Source: a virus
Reading direction: 5' to 3' (one strand)
DNA: 43,986 nt
Virus record (IMG/VR): IMGVR_UViG_3300044492_000037
Span: 1 to 43,986 of that record
In this document: positions 1 through 43,986 of the stretch, one piece after another
Layout of the letters: each line of letters starts with the position of its first letter
Position numbering within the stretch: the first letter of the stretch is position 1
The notes under the pieces: generated by a model
What the model was told of the DNA's origin: nothing
Database searches by the model: none
The model's input: only the letters and a program-made list of their open reading frames with translations
Position numbers and translations under genes: made by a program

Positions 1-127
1 TTGGGGGAGTAGACGCAGAAAATAAAATCTGACGAGTAGACCCAGTAAGATATCAAGTCGCTGCCGCCGCTATGCACCGGCTTGACGCCAGCGTTGGGAA
101 ACTTCCAAGCCGTTCCCCAGTAGGTGA
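1..127. repeat. Terminal direct repeat, copy 1 of 2 (identical to 43860-43986); circular-closure overlap of the contig
   Basis: Compared base by base: ttgggggagtagacgcagaaaataaaatctgacgag...cgttccccagtaggtga occurs at 1-127 and at 43860-43986 with no mismatch. An ORF reads through the junction. Confidence 0.97.
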
Positions 128-36243: not shown

Positions 36244-37829
36244 AAGCCACCCGGCGCGTGTTTGATGGTGTTCGCCATGCGTCGTCCCAGCTCCTTGTTG
36301 TCGATCCAGCCACTAGTGTCTTTGACATCGTCGAGGTCGTGCGATGCGACATTGAAATCGTCGAGGATCATATGATCGCGCCCCGGCACCGTGATCAGTA
36401 TCTGATAGTCGGCCCAGGTGAACTCACGCTGTCCGCGAAAGTGCGTCTTGATCTCGGTGCCGTCTGCGCGGACGTGCGGACGCACCATGTGAAAGATCCG
36501 CTTGCGCTGGCCGTGTGCTGTCGCGGTGATGTCGCGGTCCTGAAAGAAGTAACTCATGCGGTGGACGTTGACCCAGAAGGTGGCAGCCATGTCGCCCTTG
36601 GTTGCCATCACCCGCACCATGTTGAGCTGCGTCAGTGAGATGCTCTTGACGGCATCGAGAAACACTTCGCGCAGGAAGTGTTTGACAGTGTCGCCGTTGT
36701 CTTCAGCCCAGCCGCTGAACATATCGGGGATCTTCCACTGCTTGCGCGGGATCGAGTGATACTCATGGCCGCCGCGCTTGAGCCTGCGTTTGACGTACCA
36801 GTCGTCTTCGACCAGCATCCGCAACGGCTCGATCTCCTTGCCGTCCTTGCTGATCCAGATTGCGTAAGACTGCGGGACGCCGTTTTTGCGCGCATGCTTG
36901 CGAGTGTCGTAGGGCTTGTCCCACCACACTGTCATTGCATAGGTGTCGCCGCCGCTGATGCGCTCGACCTTTGGCGGCGCCTTGGCGTATTTGGTGAAAT
37001 ACATAAACTTTGGCACCAGCAGCGAACGGCCCTCGACCTTGCGTTGCTCGTACTTTTCTGTCTCCGGGTCTGCACCATAAACAAAGCACCCGAATGCCGG
37101 TCGTGTCCGGTTAAACCAGTCCGGCAGTGGTGAGTTGGTTTTCAACTCATCTCCGCTCCACTTCCTCCACTGCCGATCGTGCGACCCGGTGCTGCAATAC
37201 GGCAGGATGGTTGCGCCGTACTGCCGGTACAGGTGATAGGAGGCATTGTCGGTGCCACGCATCCGCCTGAGATAAACGAAGTAGCGTTCAAGCTGTTGCA
37301 GGATGGTGTCGCGGAAGTTGAACTCGCCGTACATTTCGGTTTCGTTGTACAGCACCTCCTGCGCGTCTTCGTGGTGCTTGCCGTGCAGCCAATACGCGGC
37401 GTCCTCCACCACGCTCTCGTCCACCACCTCGACCGGCTTCGCCTTCCTGACCGGCGCAGGCCGTGGCGGGGCAGGCAGGCGTGGCGGCAGCTCGCCCTTG
37501 GGCTTGACGAACTTGTCATGCCGCCTGCGGCGCCGCTCCAGAATGCGCCGGGTGGCGCGGTTGGGGCTTACCTTGACGGTTTCGGGTGGCGGCGCCGGGG
37601 GTGGCGGCGAAGCCGGTGCGCGTGGCTTGAGTGGCGGCAGATGGGTCAGCTTGTCGCTGGGCCGGTCCTGCTGCGGGAACGGCGGCGGCACAGACGGCGC
37701 CTTGGAGCCTGCGTCAATAGGCTCGATGGCCCGGTAATTATCGGTATTTACCGGACCACTTTTCCGGCGGCGTAACCTCATCAAAACATTGGTCAATTTG
37801 TCTCGCAGCCAATCGACCATCCAGAGCAT
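36240..37829 (-). CDS. Orphan early protein (529 aa): basic Pro-rich N-terminal third plus a ~350-aa domain with no recognisable motif
   Basis: ATG at 37827-37829 overlaps the GcrA stop (TGATG). The N-terminus reads PPLKPRAPASPPPPAPPPETVKV...RRRRRHDKFVKPKGELPPRLPAPPRPAPVRKAKP. Confidence 0.75.
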   Translation of the reverse strand: MLWMVDWLRDKLTNVLMRLRRRKSGPVNTDNYRAIEPIDAGSKAPSVPPPFPQQDRPSDKLTHLPPLKPRAPASPPPPAPPPETVKVSPNRATRRILERRRRRHDKFVKPKGELPPRLPAPPRPAPVRKAKPVEVVDESVVEDAAYWLHGKHHEDAQEVLYNETEMYGEFNFRDTILQQLERYFVYLRRMRGTDNASYHLYRQYGATILPYCSTGSHDRQWRKWSGDELKTNSPLPDWFNRTRPAFGCFVYGADPETEKYEQRKVEGRSLLVPKFMYFTKYAKAPPKVERISGGDTYAMTVWWDKPYDTRKHARKNGVPQSYAIWISKDGKEIEPLRMLVEDDWYVKRRLKRGGHEYHSIPRKQWKIPDMFSGWAEDNGDTVKHFLREVFLDAVKSISLTQLNMVRVMATKGDMAATFWVNVHRMSYFFQDRDITATAHGQRKRIFHMVRPHVRADGTEIKTHFRGQREFTWADYQILITVPGRDHMILDDFNVASHDLDDVKDTSGWIDNKELGRRMANTIKHAPGGL

Positions 37830-38239
37830 CAGCGTCCTCCACTGGTGTAGCCCTTGCGGCAATGTTCAGCGCAGTACGGCAGGCCGTCGAGCGGGACGAG
37901 GCCGCAGTACAGGTACGGCGGCAGGCCGTCAGTCACCGGCCACCGGCATGTGTGGTTGTCGAGCTGGTCGATGGTTACCTTGCCGGTCACCACCTTTGGC
38001 CTGGGCTTTTCAGCCACCGGGTGCCGGTAGATTTTCGGCTCGCGTGGTTTGTTCTTGGCGCGCTCCTTCTTTGGGCCGTTGCGCCGCGCCCGCGAGATGC
38101 AGGAGTTCTTGGTGAAGACCCGGTGAAACTTCGACACCATCCTGTCGGCAATGGCGTCGTAGTTCAGCGGCGGCTGGTGCTGCAACAGCTCGTCGAGGTA
38201 GGCCTTGGCCTCGTCTGTCCAGGGCGACGTTTCGCTCAT
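37829..38239 (-). CDS. gcrA: GcrA-family cell-cycle regulator homologue (136 aa)
   Basis: The N-terminus reads SPWTDEAKAYLDELLQHQPPLNYDAIADRMVSKFHRVFTKNSCISRARRNG. The C-terminus reads CRWPVTDGLPPYLYCGLVPLDGLPYCAEHCRKGY. Both halves match the GcrA layout. ATG at 38237-38239 overlaps the upstream stop. Confidence 0.8.
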   Translation of the reverse strand: MSETSPWTDEAKAYLDELLQHQPPLNYDAIADRMVSKFHRVFTKNSCISRARRNGPKKERAKNKPREPKIYRHPVAEKPRPKVVTGKVTIDQLDNHTCRWPVTDGLPPYLYCGLVPLDGLPYCAEHCRKGYTSGGR

Positions 38240-38529
38240 CGCTTGGTCTTTCGCTTGGCGACACGGCGCTTGATGCCAGCGGCGAGTAGCTTGCGGAGGC
38301 GGGGATGCTTGGGTGGATGCTTGGCCTTCCGCATCGCCCACAGCTCGTCCGGCGCCGACAGTCCCATCTCATGCAGCTTGTCTTTGAGGATGGTGTAGCT
38401 GTTGGCCGGAAACTTTCTTGTGGACCGCCAGTGGGAAACTACCTTTCCCGTTGTATGCGTCAGCTCGGCTACGGCTTGATTGCCGCCCAACGCATCGATC
38501 ACTAACGGTACTGATGGCATATTGCTCAT
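38236..38529 (-). CDS. Cro-like / carph-isopro-type HTH regulator (97 aa)
   Basis: ATG at 38527-38529 follows GAGGAACC. LVIDALGGNQAVAELTHTTGKVVSHWRSTRKFPANSYTILKDKLHEMGLSAPDELWAM matches the YdaS/Cro-like pattern common in alphaproteobacterial prophages. Confidence 0.65.
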   Translation of the reverse strand: MSNMPSVPLVIDALGGNQAVAELTHTTGKVVSHWRSTRKFPANSYTILKDKLHEMGLSAPDELWAMRKAKHPPKHPRLRKLLAAGIKRRVAKRKTKR

Positions 38530-40521: not shown

Positions 40522-40550
40522 TTGACAGCCTGACAGTGGTCTGATACAAT
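40522..40550 (+). promoter_or_regulatory. Internal promoter of the TTGACAGCC family
   Basis: TTGACA GCCTGACAGTGGTCTGA TACAAT (17-nt spacer), preceded by the palindrome GACAGGCTGTC (40506-40516). Confidence 0.65.
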
Positions 40551-40574
40551 GCTCCTGTTCATCACAACAGGAGC
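40551..40574 (+). promoter_or_regulatory. Leader hairpin that sequesters the Shine-Dalgarno sequence of the 40583 gene
   Basis: GCTCCTGTT CATCAC AACAGGAGC forms a 9-bp perfect stem. AGGAG (40569-40573) lies in the 3-prime arm, and the ATG is 9 nt downstream. Confidence 0.6.
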
Positions 40575-40582
40575 ATTTTTCT

Positions 40583-40873
40583 ATGTCTGAAAAACCTAGC
40601 CTACGCGATCGCCGCCGCCAGGAGGCGCGTGACGCGCTCTACCGTGCGATGGAGCGGCGCGACCAACTGCTCGACAAGCTGGTCCGCACCACCACGCACA
40701 TCAAGTCGCTGAAGCACACGCTGAAGCGGCTCAACGTCATCGACGGCATCCAAGTGTCGGCGGTGCGCGTCTCGGTGGCTGAAGGCAAATTGCTGGAGCC
40801 GCTGGAGGTCGAGGCAGGCATCACTGACCTCAACGATGACATCCCTGACCTGACGGGTGCGTCATGCAAGTAA
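40583..40873 (+). CDS. Hypothetical helical protein (96 aa)
   Basis: ATG at 40583 follows the SD hairpin (MSEKPSLRDRRRQEARDALYRAMERRDQLLDK...). Confidence 0.65.
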   Translation: MSEKPSLRDRRRQEARDALYRAMERRDQLLDKLVRTTTHIKSLKHTLKRLNVIDGIQVSAVRVSVAEGKLLEPLEVEAGITDLNDDIPDLTGASCK

Positions 40874-41307
40874 TCATCACAGACGGTGGGCGCGCATCCA
40901 GCGCCCGCTGGCGCGGCAAGGCGAAGGGTGACTGCGTCACCCGCGCCATCGCCATCGTCTCTGGCCGGTCGTACTGCGAGGTCTACGATCGGCTGGCGGA
41001 AGGCAACGCCACCCAGCGCCGGTCGAAGCGCACCGGCAAGCGTGGCCGCACGGCTGACCACGGCATCAATACAGACCGCAAGTGGTTCAAGGACTACATG
41101 GCTGAGCTGGGCTTCACCTGGGTGCCAATCATGGGCATCGGCACCGGCTGCAAGGTGCATCTGCGCGACGGCGAGTTGCCGCCGGGCAGGATGGTCGTCT
41201 CGGTCAGCCAGCACTACACCGCCGTGATCGACGGCGTGGTGTTCGACACCCACAACCCGTGCCGGGGCGGAACTCGCTGCGTTTATGGGTATTGGAAGCT
41301 GGTCTAG
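40864..41307 (+). CDS. Conserved-looking Cys/His protein (147 aa), possible papain-like fold; function unknown
   Basis: GDCVTRAIAIVSGRSYCEVYDRL...GCKVHLRDGELPPGRMVVSVSQHYTAVIDGVVFDTHNP...GTRCVYGYW. I recall near-identical patterns in plasmid and phage hypothetical proteins. Confidence 0.6.
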   Translation: MQVIITDGGRASSARWRGKAKGDCVTRAIAIVSGRSYCEVYDRLAEGNATQRRSKRTGKRGRTADHGINTDRKWFKDYMAELGFTWVPIMGIGTGCKVHLRDGELPPGRMVVSVSQHYTAVIDGVVFDTHNPCRGGTRCVYGYWKLV

Positions 41308-41326
41308 ATTATTTGGCTTCCCCTGG

Positions 41327-41366
41327 CCGCGCCGCCTGCTAGTGTCGGCGGCGCGGTATTTTTTAC
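41327..41366 (+). terminator. Rho-independent terminator
   Basis: ccgcgccgcc (41327-41336) pairs with ggcggcgcgg (41347-41356) across a 10-nt loop, followed by TATTTTTTA. Confidence 0.8.
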
Positions 41367-41384
41367 CCCACAACAGGAGCTACC

Positions 41385-42146
41385 ATGAAAACAGTCTTAG
41401 GCGCCGCCGTGGCGGCGCTCCTACTGACGGCGCCAGCACAGGCGGCGTTCATCACACTCGGCGGCCAGCAATGGACGACTACCGGCGTTGACAATCTGGT
41501 GCTGACGCCAACGGTGCCAAGCGGTAATCAACCCCAGAATATCCAATGCGTCATCTGCGGGGACCATCAACCACAGCAGCAGGCCGATTTCGGATATACT
41601 GATTTTCACAATACCGGCCAGCCAAACCAAACCCTGACCTACTTCTCCACCAACGTGGCTGGCGGCGGCAACCCAGGCCTTGACGCTCTCGGCATCCCGT
41701 ATGACGGCTCGTTCCTGCGCGCCTACTTGCTCGCTGGCGGCGACCCGACACTGACGTTCAACATCGGCATCGACACTAACGATACCGGCAACGCGCAGAT
41801 CCTGAACAGCTTCTTCCTGCTGAACGTCACCACGCACACTGTGCTGTCGGCCTTCACCACGCCGACTGCAATCCTGTCGCAGAACAATGGCACGGGCTTC
41901 CCAGACTACACGTTGGGGACGTTCAACATCACGCTGGGGACCGACATCCACGTTGGCGACCAACTGGCGTTCTTCGCTCGCGTGACCAACGCCAACGATG
42001 GCCCCGACAGCTTCTTCATCGTCCCGCAAGTGCAGGCGGTGCCGCTCCCGGCAGTCGGGTCCGGTTTCCCCATGCTGATCGCAGGCATTGGCGGGCTGGT
42101 GGCGTTGCAGCGGCGCCGGAAGGCACGGCGGCTGGCAACGGCATAA
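41385..42146 (+). CDS. Secreted protein with an N-terminal signal peptide and a C-terminal VPLPA-CTERM (PEP-CTERM-type, exosortase-dependent) sorting signal (253 aa)
   Basis: The signal peptide is MKTVLGAAVAALLLTAPAQA|AF. The C-terminus reads AVPLPAVGSGFPMLIAGIGGLVALQRRRKARRLATA: a motif, a TM helix and an Arg cluster. RBS: CACAACAGGAGCTACC ATG. Confidence 0.8.
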   Translation: MKTVLGAAVAALLLTAPAQAAFITLGGQQWTTTGVDNLVLTPTVPSGNQPQNIQCVICGDHQPQQQADFGYTDFHNTGQPNQTLTYFSTNVAGGGNPGLDALGIPYDGSFLRAYLLAGGDPTLTFNIGIDTNDTGNAQILNSFFLLNVTTHTVLSAFTTPTAILSQNNGTGFPDYTLGTFNITLGTDIHVGDQLAFFARVTNANDGPDSFFIVPQVQAVPLPAVGSGFPMLIAGIGGLVALQRRRKARRLATA

Positions 42147-42153
42147 AGACTAA

Positions 42154-42186
42154 CGCCCGGCAGGGAGGGCCTCCTCTGCCGGGCGC
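42154..42186. terminator. Strong hairpin between convergent transcription units (end of the rightward operon and end of the late operon)
   Basis: cgcccggcag (42154-42163) pairs with ctgccgggcg (42177-42186). The loop has extra GGAGG/CCTCC pairing. On the minus strand it is followed by TTAGTCTTTAT. Confidence 0.7.
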
Positions 42187-42236: not shown

Positions 42237-42359
42237 TCACAACGAAGCGCCGCGAACATAGCTGTCCGGCGGCAGCGAGACAAGGTACGAGAACGCCCAG
42301 ATAAATGCGGTAATGACGAGAACGGCGACGATTGAGATCGCTAGATCACGTCTCGTCAT
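42237..42359 (-). CDS. Possible 40-aa single-pass membrane peptide, last ORF of the late operon
   Basis: MTRRDLAISIVAVLVITAFIWAFSYLVSLPPDSYVRGASL. The ATG at 42357-42359 lies inside the 3-prime end of the preceding gene. It is not in the ORF track (<60 aa). Confidence 0.4.
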   Translation of the reverse strand: MTRRDLAISIVAVLVITAFIWAFSYLVSLPPDSYVRGASL

Positions 42360-42513
42360 CTTCGTCGTCCTGCATCAGGACGCCCACGCCGTTGATAGTG
42401 ATCTGCACGTCCACACCATCCGGCACTGTCAGCGCCACCTCGATGCGCGGCACCAGCGGCTTCACCACGCTCTCGTCCGGCATGTGAAAGACATCCTGCG
42501 GCGGCTTTGCCAT
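42346..42513 (-). CDS. Small acidic protein (55 aa)
   Basis: ATG at 42511-42513 (MAKPPQDVFHMPDES...QDDEDDET) is preceded by AGGAGATGAC. The track start at 42594 overlaps the lipoprotein ORF. Confidence 0.5.
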   Translation of the reverse strand: MAKPPQDVFHMPDESVVKPLVPRIEVALTVPDGVDVQITINGVGVLMQDDEDDET

Positions 42514-42514
42514 G

Positions 42515-42691
42515 TCATCTCCTGACGGTGCAGCGTTCCATTTGGATAAGGTTTCGCGCCAGTGCGCGGCAGGCGGTTTCGGCATTGAGGGCATCGATCT
42601 CGTAGCGAGTGTAGTAGGCAGGGCGCTCGGTCACCACGATGCATCCCGACAGCAGGATGGCGAGCAGCGCCAGGGCGATGGCGTTAGGCAT
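42515..42691 (-). CDS. Lipoprotein (58 aa), o-spanin-like candidate; absent from the ORF track
   Basis: Hand translation: MPNAIALALLAILLSGCIVVTERPAYYTRYEIDALNAETACRALARNLIQMERCTVRR. The lipobox is LLSG|C. The ATG at 42689-42691 overlaps the upstream stop (ATGCCTAA). Confidence 0.6.
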   Translation of the reverse strand: MPNAIALALLAILLSGCIVVTERPAYYTRYEIDALNAETACRALARNLIQMERCTVRR

Positions 42692-42857
42692 GGATCACAA
42701 ACCCGAAAGCATGCCAGCCAAGTAGAAACAGCAGCACGAAAAACAGCAAGTTGCTGGCGTGGACAGCCCACGGGAATTGTCCCGGCGAGTAGGTGTTGGT
42801 GACCCAGCTAAAGAACCACAGCACCATCAGAACCCAAAACAATAAACCTATCGACAT
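42684..42857 (-). CDS. Two-TM small membrane protein (57 aa), holin-like candidate
   Basis: ATG at 42855-42857 follows GAGGAGCTAGCC. Sequence: MSIGLLFWVLMVLWFFSWV...NLLFFVLLFLLGWHAFGFVIHA. Confidence 0.6.
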   Translation of the reverse strand: MSIGLLFWVLMVLWFFSWVTNTYSPGQFPWAVHASNLLFFVLLFLLGWHAFGFVIHA

Positions 42858-42859
42858 GG

Positions 42860-43060
42860 CTAGCTCCTCTTGCAAGCCTGGATGAGCTGCGTGATTAGCT
42901 CGCTGTTGGCTTTGTCACGCGCACTGGCGTTCGACGCCACGTCTGACATCAGCATTGTAACAAAAACCAGAAAGGCGATGTTGACCATCAACAACGCAAT
43001 AGCAATCGGATGCCCGGTCATCGAGGCGACGGCAGCCTTCAGGGCTTCGCCAATCGGCAT
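42860..43060 (-). CDS. Single-TM small membrane protein (66 aa), holin/antiholin or i-spanin-like candidate
   Basis: ATG at 43058-43060 overlaps the upstream stop (TGATG). Sequence: MPIGEALKAAVASMTGHPIAIALLMVNIAFLVFVTMLMSDVASNASARDKANSELITQLIQACKRS. The 292-aa track ORF in this frame is Arg-rich junk upstream of this Met. Confidence 0.6.
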   Translation of the reverse strand: MPIGEALKAAVASMTGHPIAIALLMVNIAFLVFVTMLMSDVASNASARDKANSELITQLIQACKRS

Positions 43061-43849: not shown

Positions 43850-43986
43850 TCATCCAAAGTTGGGGGAGTAGACGCAGAAAATAAAATCTGACGAGTAGAC
43901 CCAGTAAGATATCAAGTCGCTGCCGCCGCTATGCACCGGCTTGACGCCAGCGTTGGGAAACTTCCAAGCCGTTCCCCAGTAGGTGA
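43850..43986 (-). CDS. 3-prime end of the junction-spanning tail fibre gene (same gene as 1-1100; 43860-43986 duplicates 1-127)
   Basis: The reading frame continues ...CVYSPNFG, with TGA at 43850-43852. Confidence 0.8.
   Translation of the reverse strand, partial: TYWGTAWKFPNAGVKPVHSGGSDLISYWVYSSDFIFCVYSPNFG
43860..43986. repeat. Terminal direct repeat, copy 2 of 2 (identical to 1-127)
   Basis: See copy 1. Confidence 0.97.

What the first reader, a model, noticed from the sequence alone, without database searches (positions are those of the whole stretch)
41327..42186. Terminator-bracketed cassette encoding a secreted VPLPA-CTERM (exosortase-type) surface protein
The 253-aa product has a cleavable signal peptide (…APAQA|AF) and a beta-rich body with no motif I recognise. 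Its C-terminus is AVPLPA + hydrophobic helix + RRRKARR. This is the tripartite PEP-CTERM architecture in its VPLPA variant, described for Alphaproteobacteria. Such signals are processed by host exosortase-family enzymes and are a feature of cellular genomes. A phage-borne substrate, insulated by a classic terminator upstream (41327-41366) and a strong hairpin downstream (42154-42186), looks like a moron. It could remodel the host envelope, for example for superinfection exclusion, receptor masking or biofilm behaviour. I am not aware of this being a described phage function.
Basis: partly seen in the sequence, partly recalled or inferred. Interest (0 to 1): 0.75.

Follow-up and report, generated by a model that had tools for sequence, protein, structure and literature searches.

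The report
Phage-borne secreted protein with exosortase-type tag
A complete soil phage genome encodes a secreted sugar-binding-like protein whose tail is the address label bacteria use for exosortase surface sorting; hundreds of uncultured phages carry relatives with swapped labels, suggesting phages routinely borrow this host pathway.

Summary
ORF 41385-42146 (+) is a real gene with a signal peptide, a confidently modelled beta-jelly-roll body and a C-terminal VPLPA motif, membrane helix and RRRKARR. It follows a strong intrinsic terminator and precedes a strong hairpin.

The VPLPA-CTERM model scores 24.9 bits against a cut-off of 25.35, which is borderline. Comparative evidence is stronger:
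- The body has more than 400 close homologues. 205 are in IMG/VR viral contigs and none in 185,579 species-representative genomes, isolate phages or plasmids.
- Homologous bodies carry interchangeable tags: VPLPA-CTERM, PEPxxWA-CTERM, PEP-CTERM, and a majority VPGPxxGAGLPG tag that no NCBIfam model recognises.
- The window's tag is 30/31 identical to tags on bodies only about 51% identical.
- Unrelated bodies in the same phage tend to share the same tag.
- Distant cellular homologues in MAGs carry canonical PEP-CTERM.

The "moron" reading is only partly supported. No promoter fits in the 20 nt between the terminator U-run and the ATG, base composition is not atypical, and the upstream terminator is absent in relatives. 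The gene appears to be the last gene of an operon driven by a conserved promoter at 40522-40550.

The host, any processing by exosortase, and the function are all unproven. The most likely role is a surface or matrix glycan-binding protein made during infection.

The parts
40522..40550 (+). Sigma-70-like promoter (TTGACA-17-TACAAT with TG), the likely driver of the operon that ends with the finding
   Evidence: 11 of 12 consensus matches. The same site (TTGACA-17-TAGAAT) sits at the same position in the syntenic phage L043. Function is inferred.
40583..41307 (+). Two upstream operon genes: 96 aa (40583-40873) and 147 aa (40864-41307, phrog_3754, unknown function)
   Evidence: Both are conserved in L043 at 80% and 90% amino-acid identity.
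41326..41364 (+). Intrinsic terminator: GC-rich hairpin 41326-41357 followed by T6 at 41359-41364, ending 20 nt before the ATG
   Evidence: -28.2 kcal/mol, z = -4.67; terminator scan. Not conserved in most homologous loci and absent in L043. No Rfam riboswitch match.
41375..41379 (+). Ribosome-binding site AGGAG, 5 nt before the ATG
   Evidence: Read from the sequence. GGAG-type sites precede nearly all homologues.
41385..41444 (+). Signal peptide (aa 1-20, predicted cleavage AQA|AF)
   Evidence: Sequence features and hydropathy. The equivalent A-x-A site is present in 114 of 117 homologues.
41445..42035 (+). Mature body (aa 21-217): beta-jelly-roll sandwich with conserved motifs C(V/I)ICG..QPQQ, IGIDxND, NNGTGFPDYTL and NDGPDSFF
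   Evidence: Body-only AF2 model has pLDDT 83 and pTM 0.85. Invariant columns are listed. Homology to cellular PEP-CTERM proteins: hhalign probability 100%, E = 1e-50. There are no Pfam, PHROG, PADLOC or PDB-sequence matches.
42039..42146 (+). C-terminal sorting tag and stop codon: VPLPA (42039-42053), hydrophobic helix aa 224-242 (42054-42110), basic cluster RRRKARR (42111-42131), then LATA and stop
   Evidence: TIGR03370 matches aa 219-246 at 24.9 bits, E = 1.5e-5, cut-off 25.35. The tag is 30/31 identical to tags on bodies about 51% identical.
42154..42186 (.). Strong hairpin between convergent genes (finding on +, small membrane-protein genes on -); probable bidirectional terminator or RNA-end stabiliser
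   Evidence: -29.9 kcal/mol on + and -31.5 on -. Conserved in L043 with a compensatory pair. Strong hairpins or terminators follow the gene in many homologous loci.

Best explanation
This is an accessory gene of a probably virulent phage that likely infects an alphaproteobacterium. It encodes an exported protein that uses the host's exosortase-type sorting route.

Proposed steps:
1. The gene is transcribed as the last gene of the operon started at the 40522-40550 promoter. In this phage that happens only by read-through of a strong terminator, so expression is low or conditional (inferred).
2. The protein is exported by the Sec pathway and its signal peptide is cut after AQA (inferred from sequence).
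3. It stays held in the inner membrane by its C-terminal helix, with the RRRKARR cluster in the cytoplasm (inferred from architecture).
4. A host exosortase-family enzyme recognises the VPLPA motif at the membrane face, cuts off the anchor and passes the roughly 200-aa body on towards the cell surface or exopolysaccharide layer. This rests on analogy with the PEP-CTERM/EpsH model and on comparative evidence. It has not been shown.
5. The body, a calcium/lectin-like jelly roll, binds a surface glycan or matrix component. That would change how infected cells present receptors or stick together, for example by blocking adsorption of further phage (speculative).

The tag is a swappable module matched to the host's sorting enzyme. 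The body is swappable cargo.
For: Phage identity:
- Portal, major capsid, terminase, tail-fibre and primase-helicase genes are present.
- The 127-bp terminal overlap shows a circular assembly.
- No ORF with several membrane helices exists, so the phage has no exosortase of its own.

Sorting signal:
- TIGR03370 matches aa 219-246 at E = 1.5e-5.
- Close homologues carry tags of several classes on one conserved body. Counts are class A VPGPxxGAG 133, VPLPAxxW 15, the window's VPLPAVGsGFP 8, PEPxxWA 5, PEP 2.
- Some of these pass curated cut-offs.
- Distant homologues in MAG chromosomes, with housekeeping neighbours, carry canonical VPEP tags. The homology is secure.

The tag is read sequence-specifically and is not just a membrane anchor:
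- The window's body is 76% identical to P0009, which has a class A tag. Its tag is 30/31 identical to that of L077, whose body is about 51% identical.
- Nucleotide identity with L077 is 78% in the tag against 56% in the body.
- Unrelated secreted proteins in the same phage share the tag class in 4 of 5 cases. In L054 the two tags are 24/31 identical.
- In one phage group the same genomic slot holds either this body or an unrelated one, both with the window-type tag.
- This mirrors the within-species similarity of PEP-CTERM tags reported by Haft et al. 2006 (PMC1569441).

Selection in phages:
- There are 205 loci in IMG/VR. The 52 dereplicated loci analysed fall into 26 neighbourhood types, and nearly all have a strong RBS.

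Host clade:
- The phage encodes a GcrA homologue, a regulator I know as typical of Alphaproteobacteria.
- The closest portal proteins are from Rhizobium phage (50%) and Brucella phages (35%).

Fold:
- The jelly-roll model is confident.
- The best structural hits are CBM35, the Fbs1 sugar-binding domain, CBM16 and a phage 'galactose binding protein'. All are weak.
Against: - The HMM score is just below the curated cut-off.
- The majority tag of the family matches no curated sorting-signal model even at E<=1.
- The host is unknown, so neither an exosortase nor host proteins with the same tag could be shown.
- A metagenome scan for the window-type tag returned only 23 loci. All those that could be judged were phage-like, and no clear cellular carrier emerged.
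- No structural match is significant: best E = 7.7e-3 and TM <= 0.42.
- The strong terminator directly upstream argues against high expression.
- There is no direct evidence for any envelope phenotype.
Confidence: 0.6

Rival explanations
1. The C-terminal segment is only a membrane anchor. The protein would be a type I inner-membrane protein with a periplasmic beta-sandwich and would never be cut by an exosortase. It would act at the inner membrane or in the periplasm, for example by blocking DNA entry of superinfecting phage or by modulating lysis.
For: - The score is below the curated cut-off.
- The majority tag class is unrecognised by NCBIfam.
- No host exosortase has been demonstrated.
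- The gene lies convergent to a cluster of small membrane or lipoprotein ORFs that look like lysis genes.
Against: - The V-P-x-P motif sits at a fixed distance from the helix in all classes.
- Tags on homologous bodies switch between model-defined exosortase signals.
- The tag is preserved at 30/31 residues across bodies about 51% identical, far more than a generic anchor needs.
- Cellular homologues have canonical PEP-CTERM.
Confidence: 0.17
2. It is a passenger gene, either recently captured host DNA or a binning/assembly artefact, with no role in the phage life cycle.
For: - Distant homologues are chromosomal PEP-CTERM genes in MAGs.
- The upstream terminator would limit its expression.
Against: - The same protein occurs on 15 contigs from many samples.
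- There are 205 IMG/VR loci against 0 in 185,579 representative genomes.
- Composition and GC3 equal those of the phage.
- The RBS is conserved and 48 columns are invariant.
- The assembly is circular.
Confidence: 0.05
3. It is a virion or assembly component, such as a decoration or tail accessory protein.
For: - In some phages the gene sits in the structural block right after the portal gene (L003 second copy and L067).
- Weak fold hits include phage tail proteins and capsid jelly rolls.
Against: - A cleavable signal peptide plus a C-terminal membrane helix is not expected for tailed-phage virion proteins.
- The position varies across 26 neighbourhood types.
- In the window it lies next to early or replication-side genes.
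- There is no PHROG match.
Confidence: 0.03

Closest known systems
PEP-CTERM / exosortase (EpsH) protein-sorting system (Haft et al. 2006, PMC1569441)
   Same: - Signal peptide, no internal membrane segments, and a body with no Pfam match.
- A C-terminal motif, membrane helix and basic cluster at the extreme C-terminus.
- Tags behave as modules and are more alike within one genome than between genomes.
   Different: - The gene is encoded by a phage, not by a cell with many paralogues.
- The motif is VPLPA rather than PEP.
- The cognate enzyme is not encoded by the element and has not been identified.
VPLPA-CTERM sorting domain (NCBIfam TIGR03370)
   Same: The full-length model aligns to aa 219-246 at E = 1.5e-5. 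Other members of the same body family score up to E = 1.6e-7, and P0186 scores 40.2 bits.
   Different: - The score is 24.9 bits against a cut-off of 25.35.
- The helix reads VGSGFPMLIAG. That is intermediate between classical VPLPAxxWLF tags and the family's majority VPGPxxGAGLPG tag, which no model recognises.
Cellular PEP-CTERM surface proteins such as floc-forming PepA and the FxDxF family (NF033554, NF038126; Aquincola/Zoogloea work, PMC9850573)
   Same: - Small secreted beta-rich proteins with exosortase tags.
- Distant relatives of the window protein give sub-threshold body hits to these models: P0200 scores 43 bits to FxDxF and 37 bits to PepA.
- A neighbouring phage gene, L054b, has an FxDxF-like body.
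   Different: The window protein itself gives no hit to these models. A role in aggregation is only an analogy.
Phage morons and phage-encoded envelope proteins that block receptors (T5 Llp, lambdoid Cor; from my own knowledge)
   Same: It is an accessory gene not needed for virion building, its product is targeted to the envelope, and it is present or absent among related phages.
   Different: - It has no promoter of its own and no atypical composition.
- It would use an exosortase-type tag instead of a lipoprotein signal.
- It has no sequence similarity to known exclusion or defence proteins.
- No phenotype is known.
'Choice-of-anchor' domains in NCBIfam (from my own knowledge)
   Same: One conserved extracellular body is found fused to different C-terminal sorting signals.
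   Different: Here the swapping is between variants of exosortase-type tags and takes place in phage genomes.

Membership tests
Exosortase-sorted proteins (PEP-CTERM type, VPLPA-CTERM variant) | N-terminal signal peptide | tested here: met
   Basic n-region, hydrophobic core and AQA|A site. An AxA-like site is present in 114 of 117 homologues. SignalP was not available.
Exosortase-sorted proteins (PEP-CTERM type, VPLPA-CTERM variant) | Signature motif, then a membrane helix, then a basic cluster, at the extreme C-terminus, with no internal membrane segments | tested here: met
   VPLPA 219-223, hydrophobic stretch 224-242, RRRKARR 243-249, end at 253. AF2 models a helix at 227-252. Only two hydrophobic segments exist, one at each end.
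Exosortase-sorted proteins (PEP-CTERM type, VPLPA-CTERM variant) | Score at or above the curated cut-off of TIGR03370 | tested here: inconclusive
   24.9 bits against 25.35, E = 1.5e-5, with the full model aligned. Homologous bodies carry tags above the cut-offs: P0186 VPLPA-CTERM 40.2, P0174 PEPxxWA 41.5 against 35, P0148 PEP-CTERM 25.8 against 16.
Exosortase-sorted proteins (PEP-CTERM type, VPLPA-CTERM variant) | Cognate exosortase and several proteins with the same tag in the same (host) genome | not testable with these tools
   The host is unknown and the phage has no ORF with several membrane helices. As indirect support, co-resident phage genes share the tag class in 4 of 5 cases.
Exosortase-sorted proteins (PEP-CTERM type, VPLPA-CTERM variant) | Proteolytic removal of the C-terminal anchor | not testable with these tools
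   This needs proteomics of infected cells.
Uncharacterised PEP-CTERM body superfamily (motifs PCIIxGT.C / IDVNT / NNGNGxxD / DGxESFF) | Profile-level homology of the body | tested here: met
   hmmsearch found 339 representatives at E<=1e-3. hhalign of A1 against A3 gives probability 100%, E = 1e-50. Shared motifs are visible.
Moron (self-contained promoter-gene-terminator insert in a phage genome) | Own promoter directly upstream | tested here: not met
   No promoter-like site lies between 40550 and the ATG. Only 20 nt separate the terminator U-run from the start codon.
Moron (self-contained promoter-gene-terminator insert in a phage genome) | Terminator directly downstream | tested here: inconclusive
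   There is a strong conserved hairpin, but without a U-tract on the + strand. Classical terminators follow the gene in several other loci.
Moron (self-contained promoter-gene-terminator insert in a phage genome) | Base composition different from the surrounding genome | tested here: not met
   GC is 0.615 against 0.620, and GC3 of 0.78 lies within the range of the phage's genes.
Moron (self-contained promoter-gene-terminator insert in a phage genome) | Present or absent, or differently placed, among related phages | tested here: met
   No homologue is found in isolate phages, including the Rhizobium and Brucella relatives. The 52 dereplicated loci fall into 26 neighbourhood types.
Known superinfection-exclusion or defence proteins | Sequence similarity to a described family | tested here: not met
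   PADLOC gives no hit and PHROGs gives no hit.
Carbohydrate-binding modules (CBM35 / galactose-binding-like) | Significant structural or sequence match | tested here: not met
   The best Foldseek result is E = 7.7e-3 with TM 0.31/0.42. BFVD gives 1.9e-3. Pfam and PDB sequence searches give none. Only the general jelly-roll class is supported.

The most novel reading that the evidence does not exclude
Soil phages may keep a dedicated 'surface-cargo' gene slot. Small lectin-like bodies would be interchangeable, each fused to a tag copied from, and kept matched to, the host's exosortase-type sorting system. Infected cells would then be decorated with phage proteins.

One of these tags, the majority VPGPxxGAGLPG...RRRR class, is a sorting signal with no curated model.

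If this is right, tag class would act as a readable host-range marker for uncultured phages. Exosortase pathways would join lipoprotein sorting as envelope routes exploited by phages.
Probability: 0.35. Interest if true: 0.8.

Novelty: new variant of a known kind. Interest (0 to 1): 0.65.

Why it matters
Exosortase sorting is widespread in environmental bacteria, but its substrates and their fates are poorly understood.

A large phage-restricted family of substrates would give two things:
- A natural experiment on what the tag must look like. The tags swap between classes and stay nearly identical across divergent bodies.
- A new kind of phage-host interaction, in which the phage sends its own protein to the host surface or exopolysaccharide matrix.

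It could also help assign hosts to uncultured soil phages through tag matching. In addition, it points to an uncatalogued tag class.

Tried and rejected
- **Riboswitch or attenuator upstream.** I considered this because cellular PEP-CTERM genes can sit behind c-di-GMP riboswitches. Rfam gave nothing at gathering threshold or at E<=1.
- **Hidden promoter between terminator and ATG.** None was found. By eye, the TTGGCT/TAGTGT pair is 21 nt apart, which is too far.
- **Phage-encoded exosortase.** No ORF with more than two hydrophobic segments exists.
- **Lysogeny of the window phage.** No integrase or repressor family was found in ten ORFs of the non-structural region. The precomputed Pfam hits for relatives show none either.
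- **Homologues in isolate phages or plasmids.** None were found. A tag-only tblastn against plasmids also found nothing.
- **First genome scan with the close family.** It found 0 relatives. A narrower one found 9 MAG loci.
- **Tag-only search of the 5.8-billion-protein set.** It returned only one fragment and was uninformative.
- **Metagenome scan for the window-type tag, meant to find host proteins.** It found only phage-like or undetermined loci.
- **Defence-system, PDB-sequence, Pfam and PHROG matches for the body.** None were found.
- **Cys-Gln thioester idea for the CxxC..QPQQ motif.** I dropped it because the Gln residues are not conserved in the superfamily.

Full report
**The observation**

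The ORF at 41385-42146 (+) encodes 253 aa. It starts with ATG, 5 nt after an AGGAG site. Its GC3 is 0.78, like the other phage genes, and its GC equals that of the window (0.615 against 0.620).

The N-terminus, MKTVLGAAVAALLLTAPAQA|AF, has the three regions of a Sec signal peptide. The C-terminus reads AVPLPA, then 19 mostly hydrophobic residues, then RRRKARR, then LATA. Only these two hydrophobic segments exist.

The upstream hairpin (41326-41357, followed by T6) folds at -28.2 kcal/mol, z = -4.7, and the terminator scan also picks it up. The downstream hairpin (42154-42186) folds at -29.9 kcal/mol on + and -31.5 on -.

**The surroundings**

The window is a complete phage genome.
- Its first and last 127 nt are identical. 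A contig from another sample runs across the junction at 100% identity.
- It encodes a portal, major capsid protein, large terminase, collagen-like tail fibres, a muralytic virion protein and a primase-helicase.
- The nearest isolate phages by portal protein are a Rhizobium phage (50%) and the Brucella Tb-like podoviruses (35%).
- The phage carries a GcrA homologue. From my own knowledge, GcrA is a regulator typical of Alphaproteobacteria. An alphaproteobacterial host is therefore likely, but inferred.
- No integrase or repressor family was found, so there is no sign of lysogeny in this phage.
- No ORF has several membrane helices, so the phage has no exosortase of its own.

**Transcription context**

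The gene is the last one on the + strand before a convergent block of small membrane-protein genes. A near-consensus promoter at 40522-40550 is conserved at the same place in the syntenic relative L043. It most likely drives the 96-aa and 147-aa genes and then the finding.

In the window, the strong terminator sits between the 147-aa gene and the finding. It leaves 20 nt, including the RBS, before the ATG. No promoter fits there and none was detected. In L043 there is no terminator. A 65-aa ORF fills the gap, and its stop overlaps the start of the homologue.

Across the homologous loci examined, an upstream terminator is the exception. A strong downstream hairpin or classical terminator is common, and a GGAG-type RBS is nearly universal. 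The downstream hairpin is conserved in L043 with one compensatory base-pair change. Rfam finds no riboswitch.

The gene is thus not a self-contained moron. In this phage its expression should depend on terminator read-through.

**The sorting signal**

The NCBIfam VPLPA-CTERM model aligns end to end with residues 219-246 at E = 1.5e-5. Its 24.9 bits fall 0.45 bits short of the curated cut-off. Taken alone this is borderline. The comparative data decide the matter.

- The body has 422 homologues at E<=1e-3 in the large protein collection. The best 120 are 60-73% identical and about 250 aa long.
- Their C-termini fall into discrete classes on one conserved body. A majority VPGPxxGAG(L/I)PG class has 133 of 171 sequences. 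Classical VPLPAxxW has 15, the window's VPLPAVGsGFP type 8, PEPxxWA 5 and plain PEP 2.
- Several of these are recognised by curated models.
- The majority class is recognised by none, even at E<=1.

**The tag is a module under sequence-specific selection**

- The window's body is closest (76%) to a protein with the majority tag. Its own tag is 30/31 identical to the tag of L077, whose body is only about 51% identical.
- At the DNA level against L077 the tag is 78% identical and the body 56%. The reverse holds for the closest body relatives.
- One homologue (L069) keeps a remnant VPGPTVGA in front of a PEPxxWA tag.
- Within the window's own phage lineage, three related genomes carry three tag classes.
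- Five phage loci have a second secreted protein with an unrelated body next to the gene. In four of them both proteins carry the same tag class. In L054 the two tags are 24/31 identical, and the second body is FxDxF-family-like.
- A metagenome scan for the window-type tag found 23 loci. Sixteen carry this body and seven carry other bodies.
- In one group of syntenic phage loci (SNF2 helicase, DNA polymerase A, DUF551), the same slot holds either this body or an unrelated 'FRIDVAP' body. Both have the window-type tag.

This is the behaviour Haft et al. described for PEP-CTERM tags in cells: modular, and more alike within a genome than between genomes (PMC1569441). It is what one expects if the tag must fit the host's sorting enzyme.

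**Where the family lives**

- With the close family as query, a scan of 185,579 species-representative genomes found no relative.
- IMG/VR held 205 loci.
- Isolate phages and plasmids held none.
- Contexts I inspected are phage-like and of several architectures. They include the window type, a Mu-like-baseplate phage with ERF and YqaJ, and a type where the gene follows the portal.
- The 52 dereplicated loci fall into 26 neighbourhood groups. Some carriers have integrase or ERF homologues nearby, so some are probably temperate.
- More distant members of the same superfamily occur in phages (L014), in an integrase-bearing island (L013), and in ordinary chromosomal neighbourhoods of beta- and gammaproteobacterial, Rokubacteria, Rhodospirillaceae and Acidobacteria MAGs. 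The chromosomal copies carry canonical VPEP tags.

The simplest history is that a cellular PEP-CTERM protein family was taken up by phages and has radiated there.

**The body**

- AlphaFold models are confident. The full-length model has pLDDT 80. The body-only model has pLDDT 83 and pTM 0.85. They show a beta-jelly-roll with one helix.
- Foldseek finds nothing at E<=1e-3. The best hits are sugar-binding jelly rolls (CBM35, the Fbs1 sugar-binding domain, CBM16, concanavalin A and a phage 'galactose binding protein'). TNF-like and capsid jelly rolls also appear, with TM scores at most 0.42.
- Conserved Asp/Asn-rich loops (IDxND, NNGTGFPD, NDGPDSFF) would suit calcium or sugar binding. That is inference.
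- No Pfam, PHROG, PADLOC or PDB-sequence match exists.

**Mechanism and alternatives**

The best-supported account is Sec export, temporary anchoring by the C-terminal helix, and cleavage at the VPLPA motif by a host exosortase-family enzyme. The lectin-like body would then be delivered to the cell surface or matrix.

The gene, its architecture, the phage restriction and the tag modularity are shown. Export, cleavage and localisation are inferred by analogy. The biological role (receptor masking, superinfection exclusion or aggregation) is speculative.

The main rival is that the tail is only an anchor and the protein works at the inner membrane. The specific conservation and class-switching of the tag argue against it but do not exclude it. 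A passenger gene and a virion component are both unlikely, for the reasons given under the rival explanations.

**Novelty**

Full-text searches found no paper that describes phage-encoded exosortase substrates as a phenomenon. There are two passing mentions. One is a PEP-CTERM domain protein in a Dehalococcoides mobile element or virus lineage. The other is TIGR03118 proteins with a putative exosortase-interaction domain among cell-derived genes in hot-spring viruses.

I therefore rate this as a new variant of a known kind. The sorting architecture is known. The following appear to be new:
- its systematic use by phages;
- the cargo-and-tag modularity;
- the unmodelled majority tag.

All of it is computational, and the host is unknown.

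Noticed in passing
window 1-127 and 43860-43986: The first 127 nt are exactly repeated at the end, which is a circular-assembly overlap. The genome is 43,859 bp, and a contig from another sample (L005) spans the junction at 100% identity.
   Followed up: yes
window 42237-43060 (- strand): A cluster of small membrane-protein ORFs lies convergent to the finding. They are a 40-aa single-helix protein, a 58-aa protein with a lipoprotein box (LLSGC), a 63-aa two-helix protein and a protein of about 66 aa with an N-terminal helix. This looks like a holin/spanin-type lysis cassette. Two of them are 82-98% identical in L043.
   Followed up: partly
window 40522-40577: A near-consensus promoter (TTGACA-17-TACAAT with TG) directly abuts a 12-bp hairpin with a T-run. 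This is a terminator/promoter junction between the 111-aa and 96-aa genes. The promoter is conserved in L043.
   Followed up: partly
window about 37829-38341 (- strand): The phage encodes a GcrA-family protein (PF07750, according to the precomputed hits for identical contigs). From my own knowledge this is a cell-cycle regulator typical of Alphaproteobacteria, so it is a clue to the host.
   Followed up: no
homologues P0003, P0009, P0035, P0093, P0159 and 133 of 171 family members: The majority C-terminal tag, VPGPxxGAG(L/I)PG...RRRR, is not recognised by any NCBIfam sorting-signal model at E<=1. It replaces PEP-CTERM on an FxDxF-like body in L054. It may be an uncatalogued exosortase-type signal.
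   Followed up: partly
L115 and L125 (both on contig Ga0210380_10000037, 94,958 bp); also L120 and L121: One contig carries two syntenic phage-like segments about 46 kb apart. They may be two related genomes joined in assembly. At the same slot one has this family's body and the other an unrelated 'FRIDVAP' body. Both carry the window-type tag.
   Followed up: partly
L003 766-1530 and 7815-8564: Two paralogues of the family lie on one phage contig, and the second sits directly after the portal gene. L067 has the same placement.
   Followed up: no
homologues P0014, P0018, P0041, P0048, P0052, P0072, P0080, P0084: Eight of 117 full-length close homologues have a lipoprotein-box-like signal peptide (L[IAV]SC|G) instead of a plain A-x-A site. 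Some members may therefore be lipidated at the N-terminus as well as tagged at the C-terminus.
   Followed up: no
L069 9654-10430: The tag reads VPGPTVGAVPEPATWAMM. It is a truncated majority-type motif followed by a full PEPxxWA tag, apparently a fossil of tag replacement.
   Followed up: no
L018, L021, L023 (MAG loci): Cellular members of the superfamily sit in tandem with other small PEP-CTERM proteins that have unrelated bodies but near-identical tags. L018 has three in a row.
   Followed up: no
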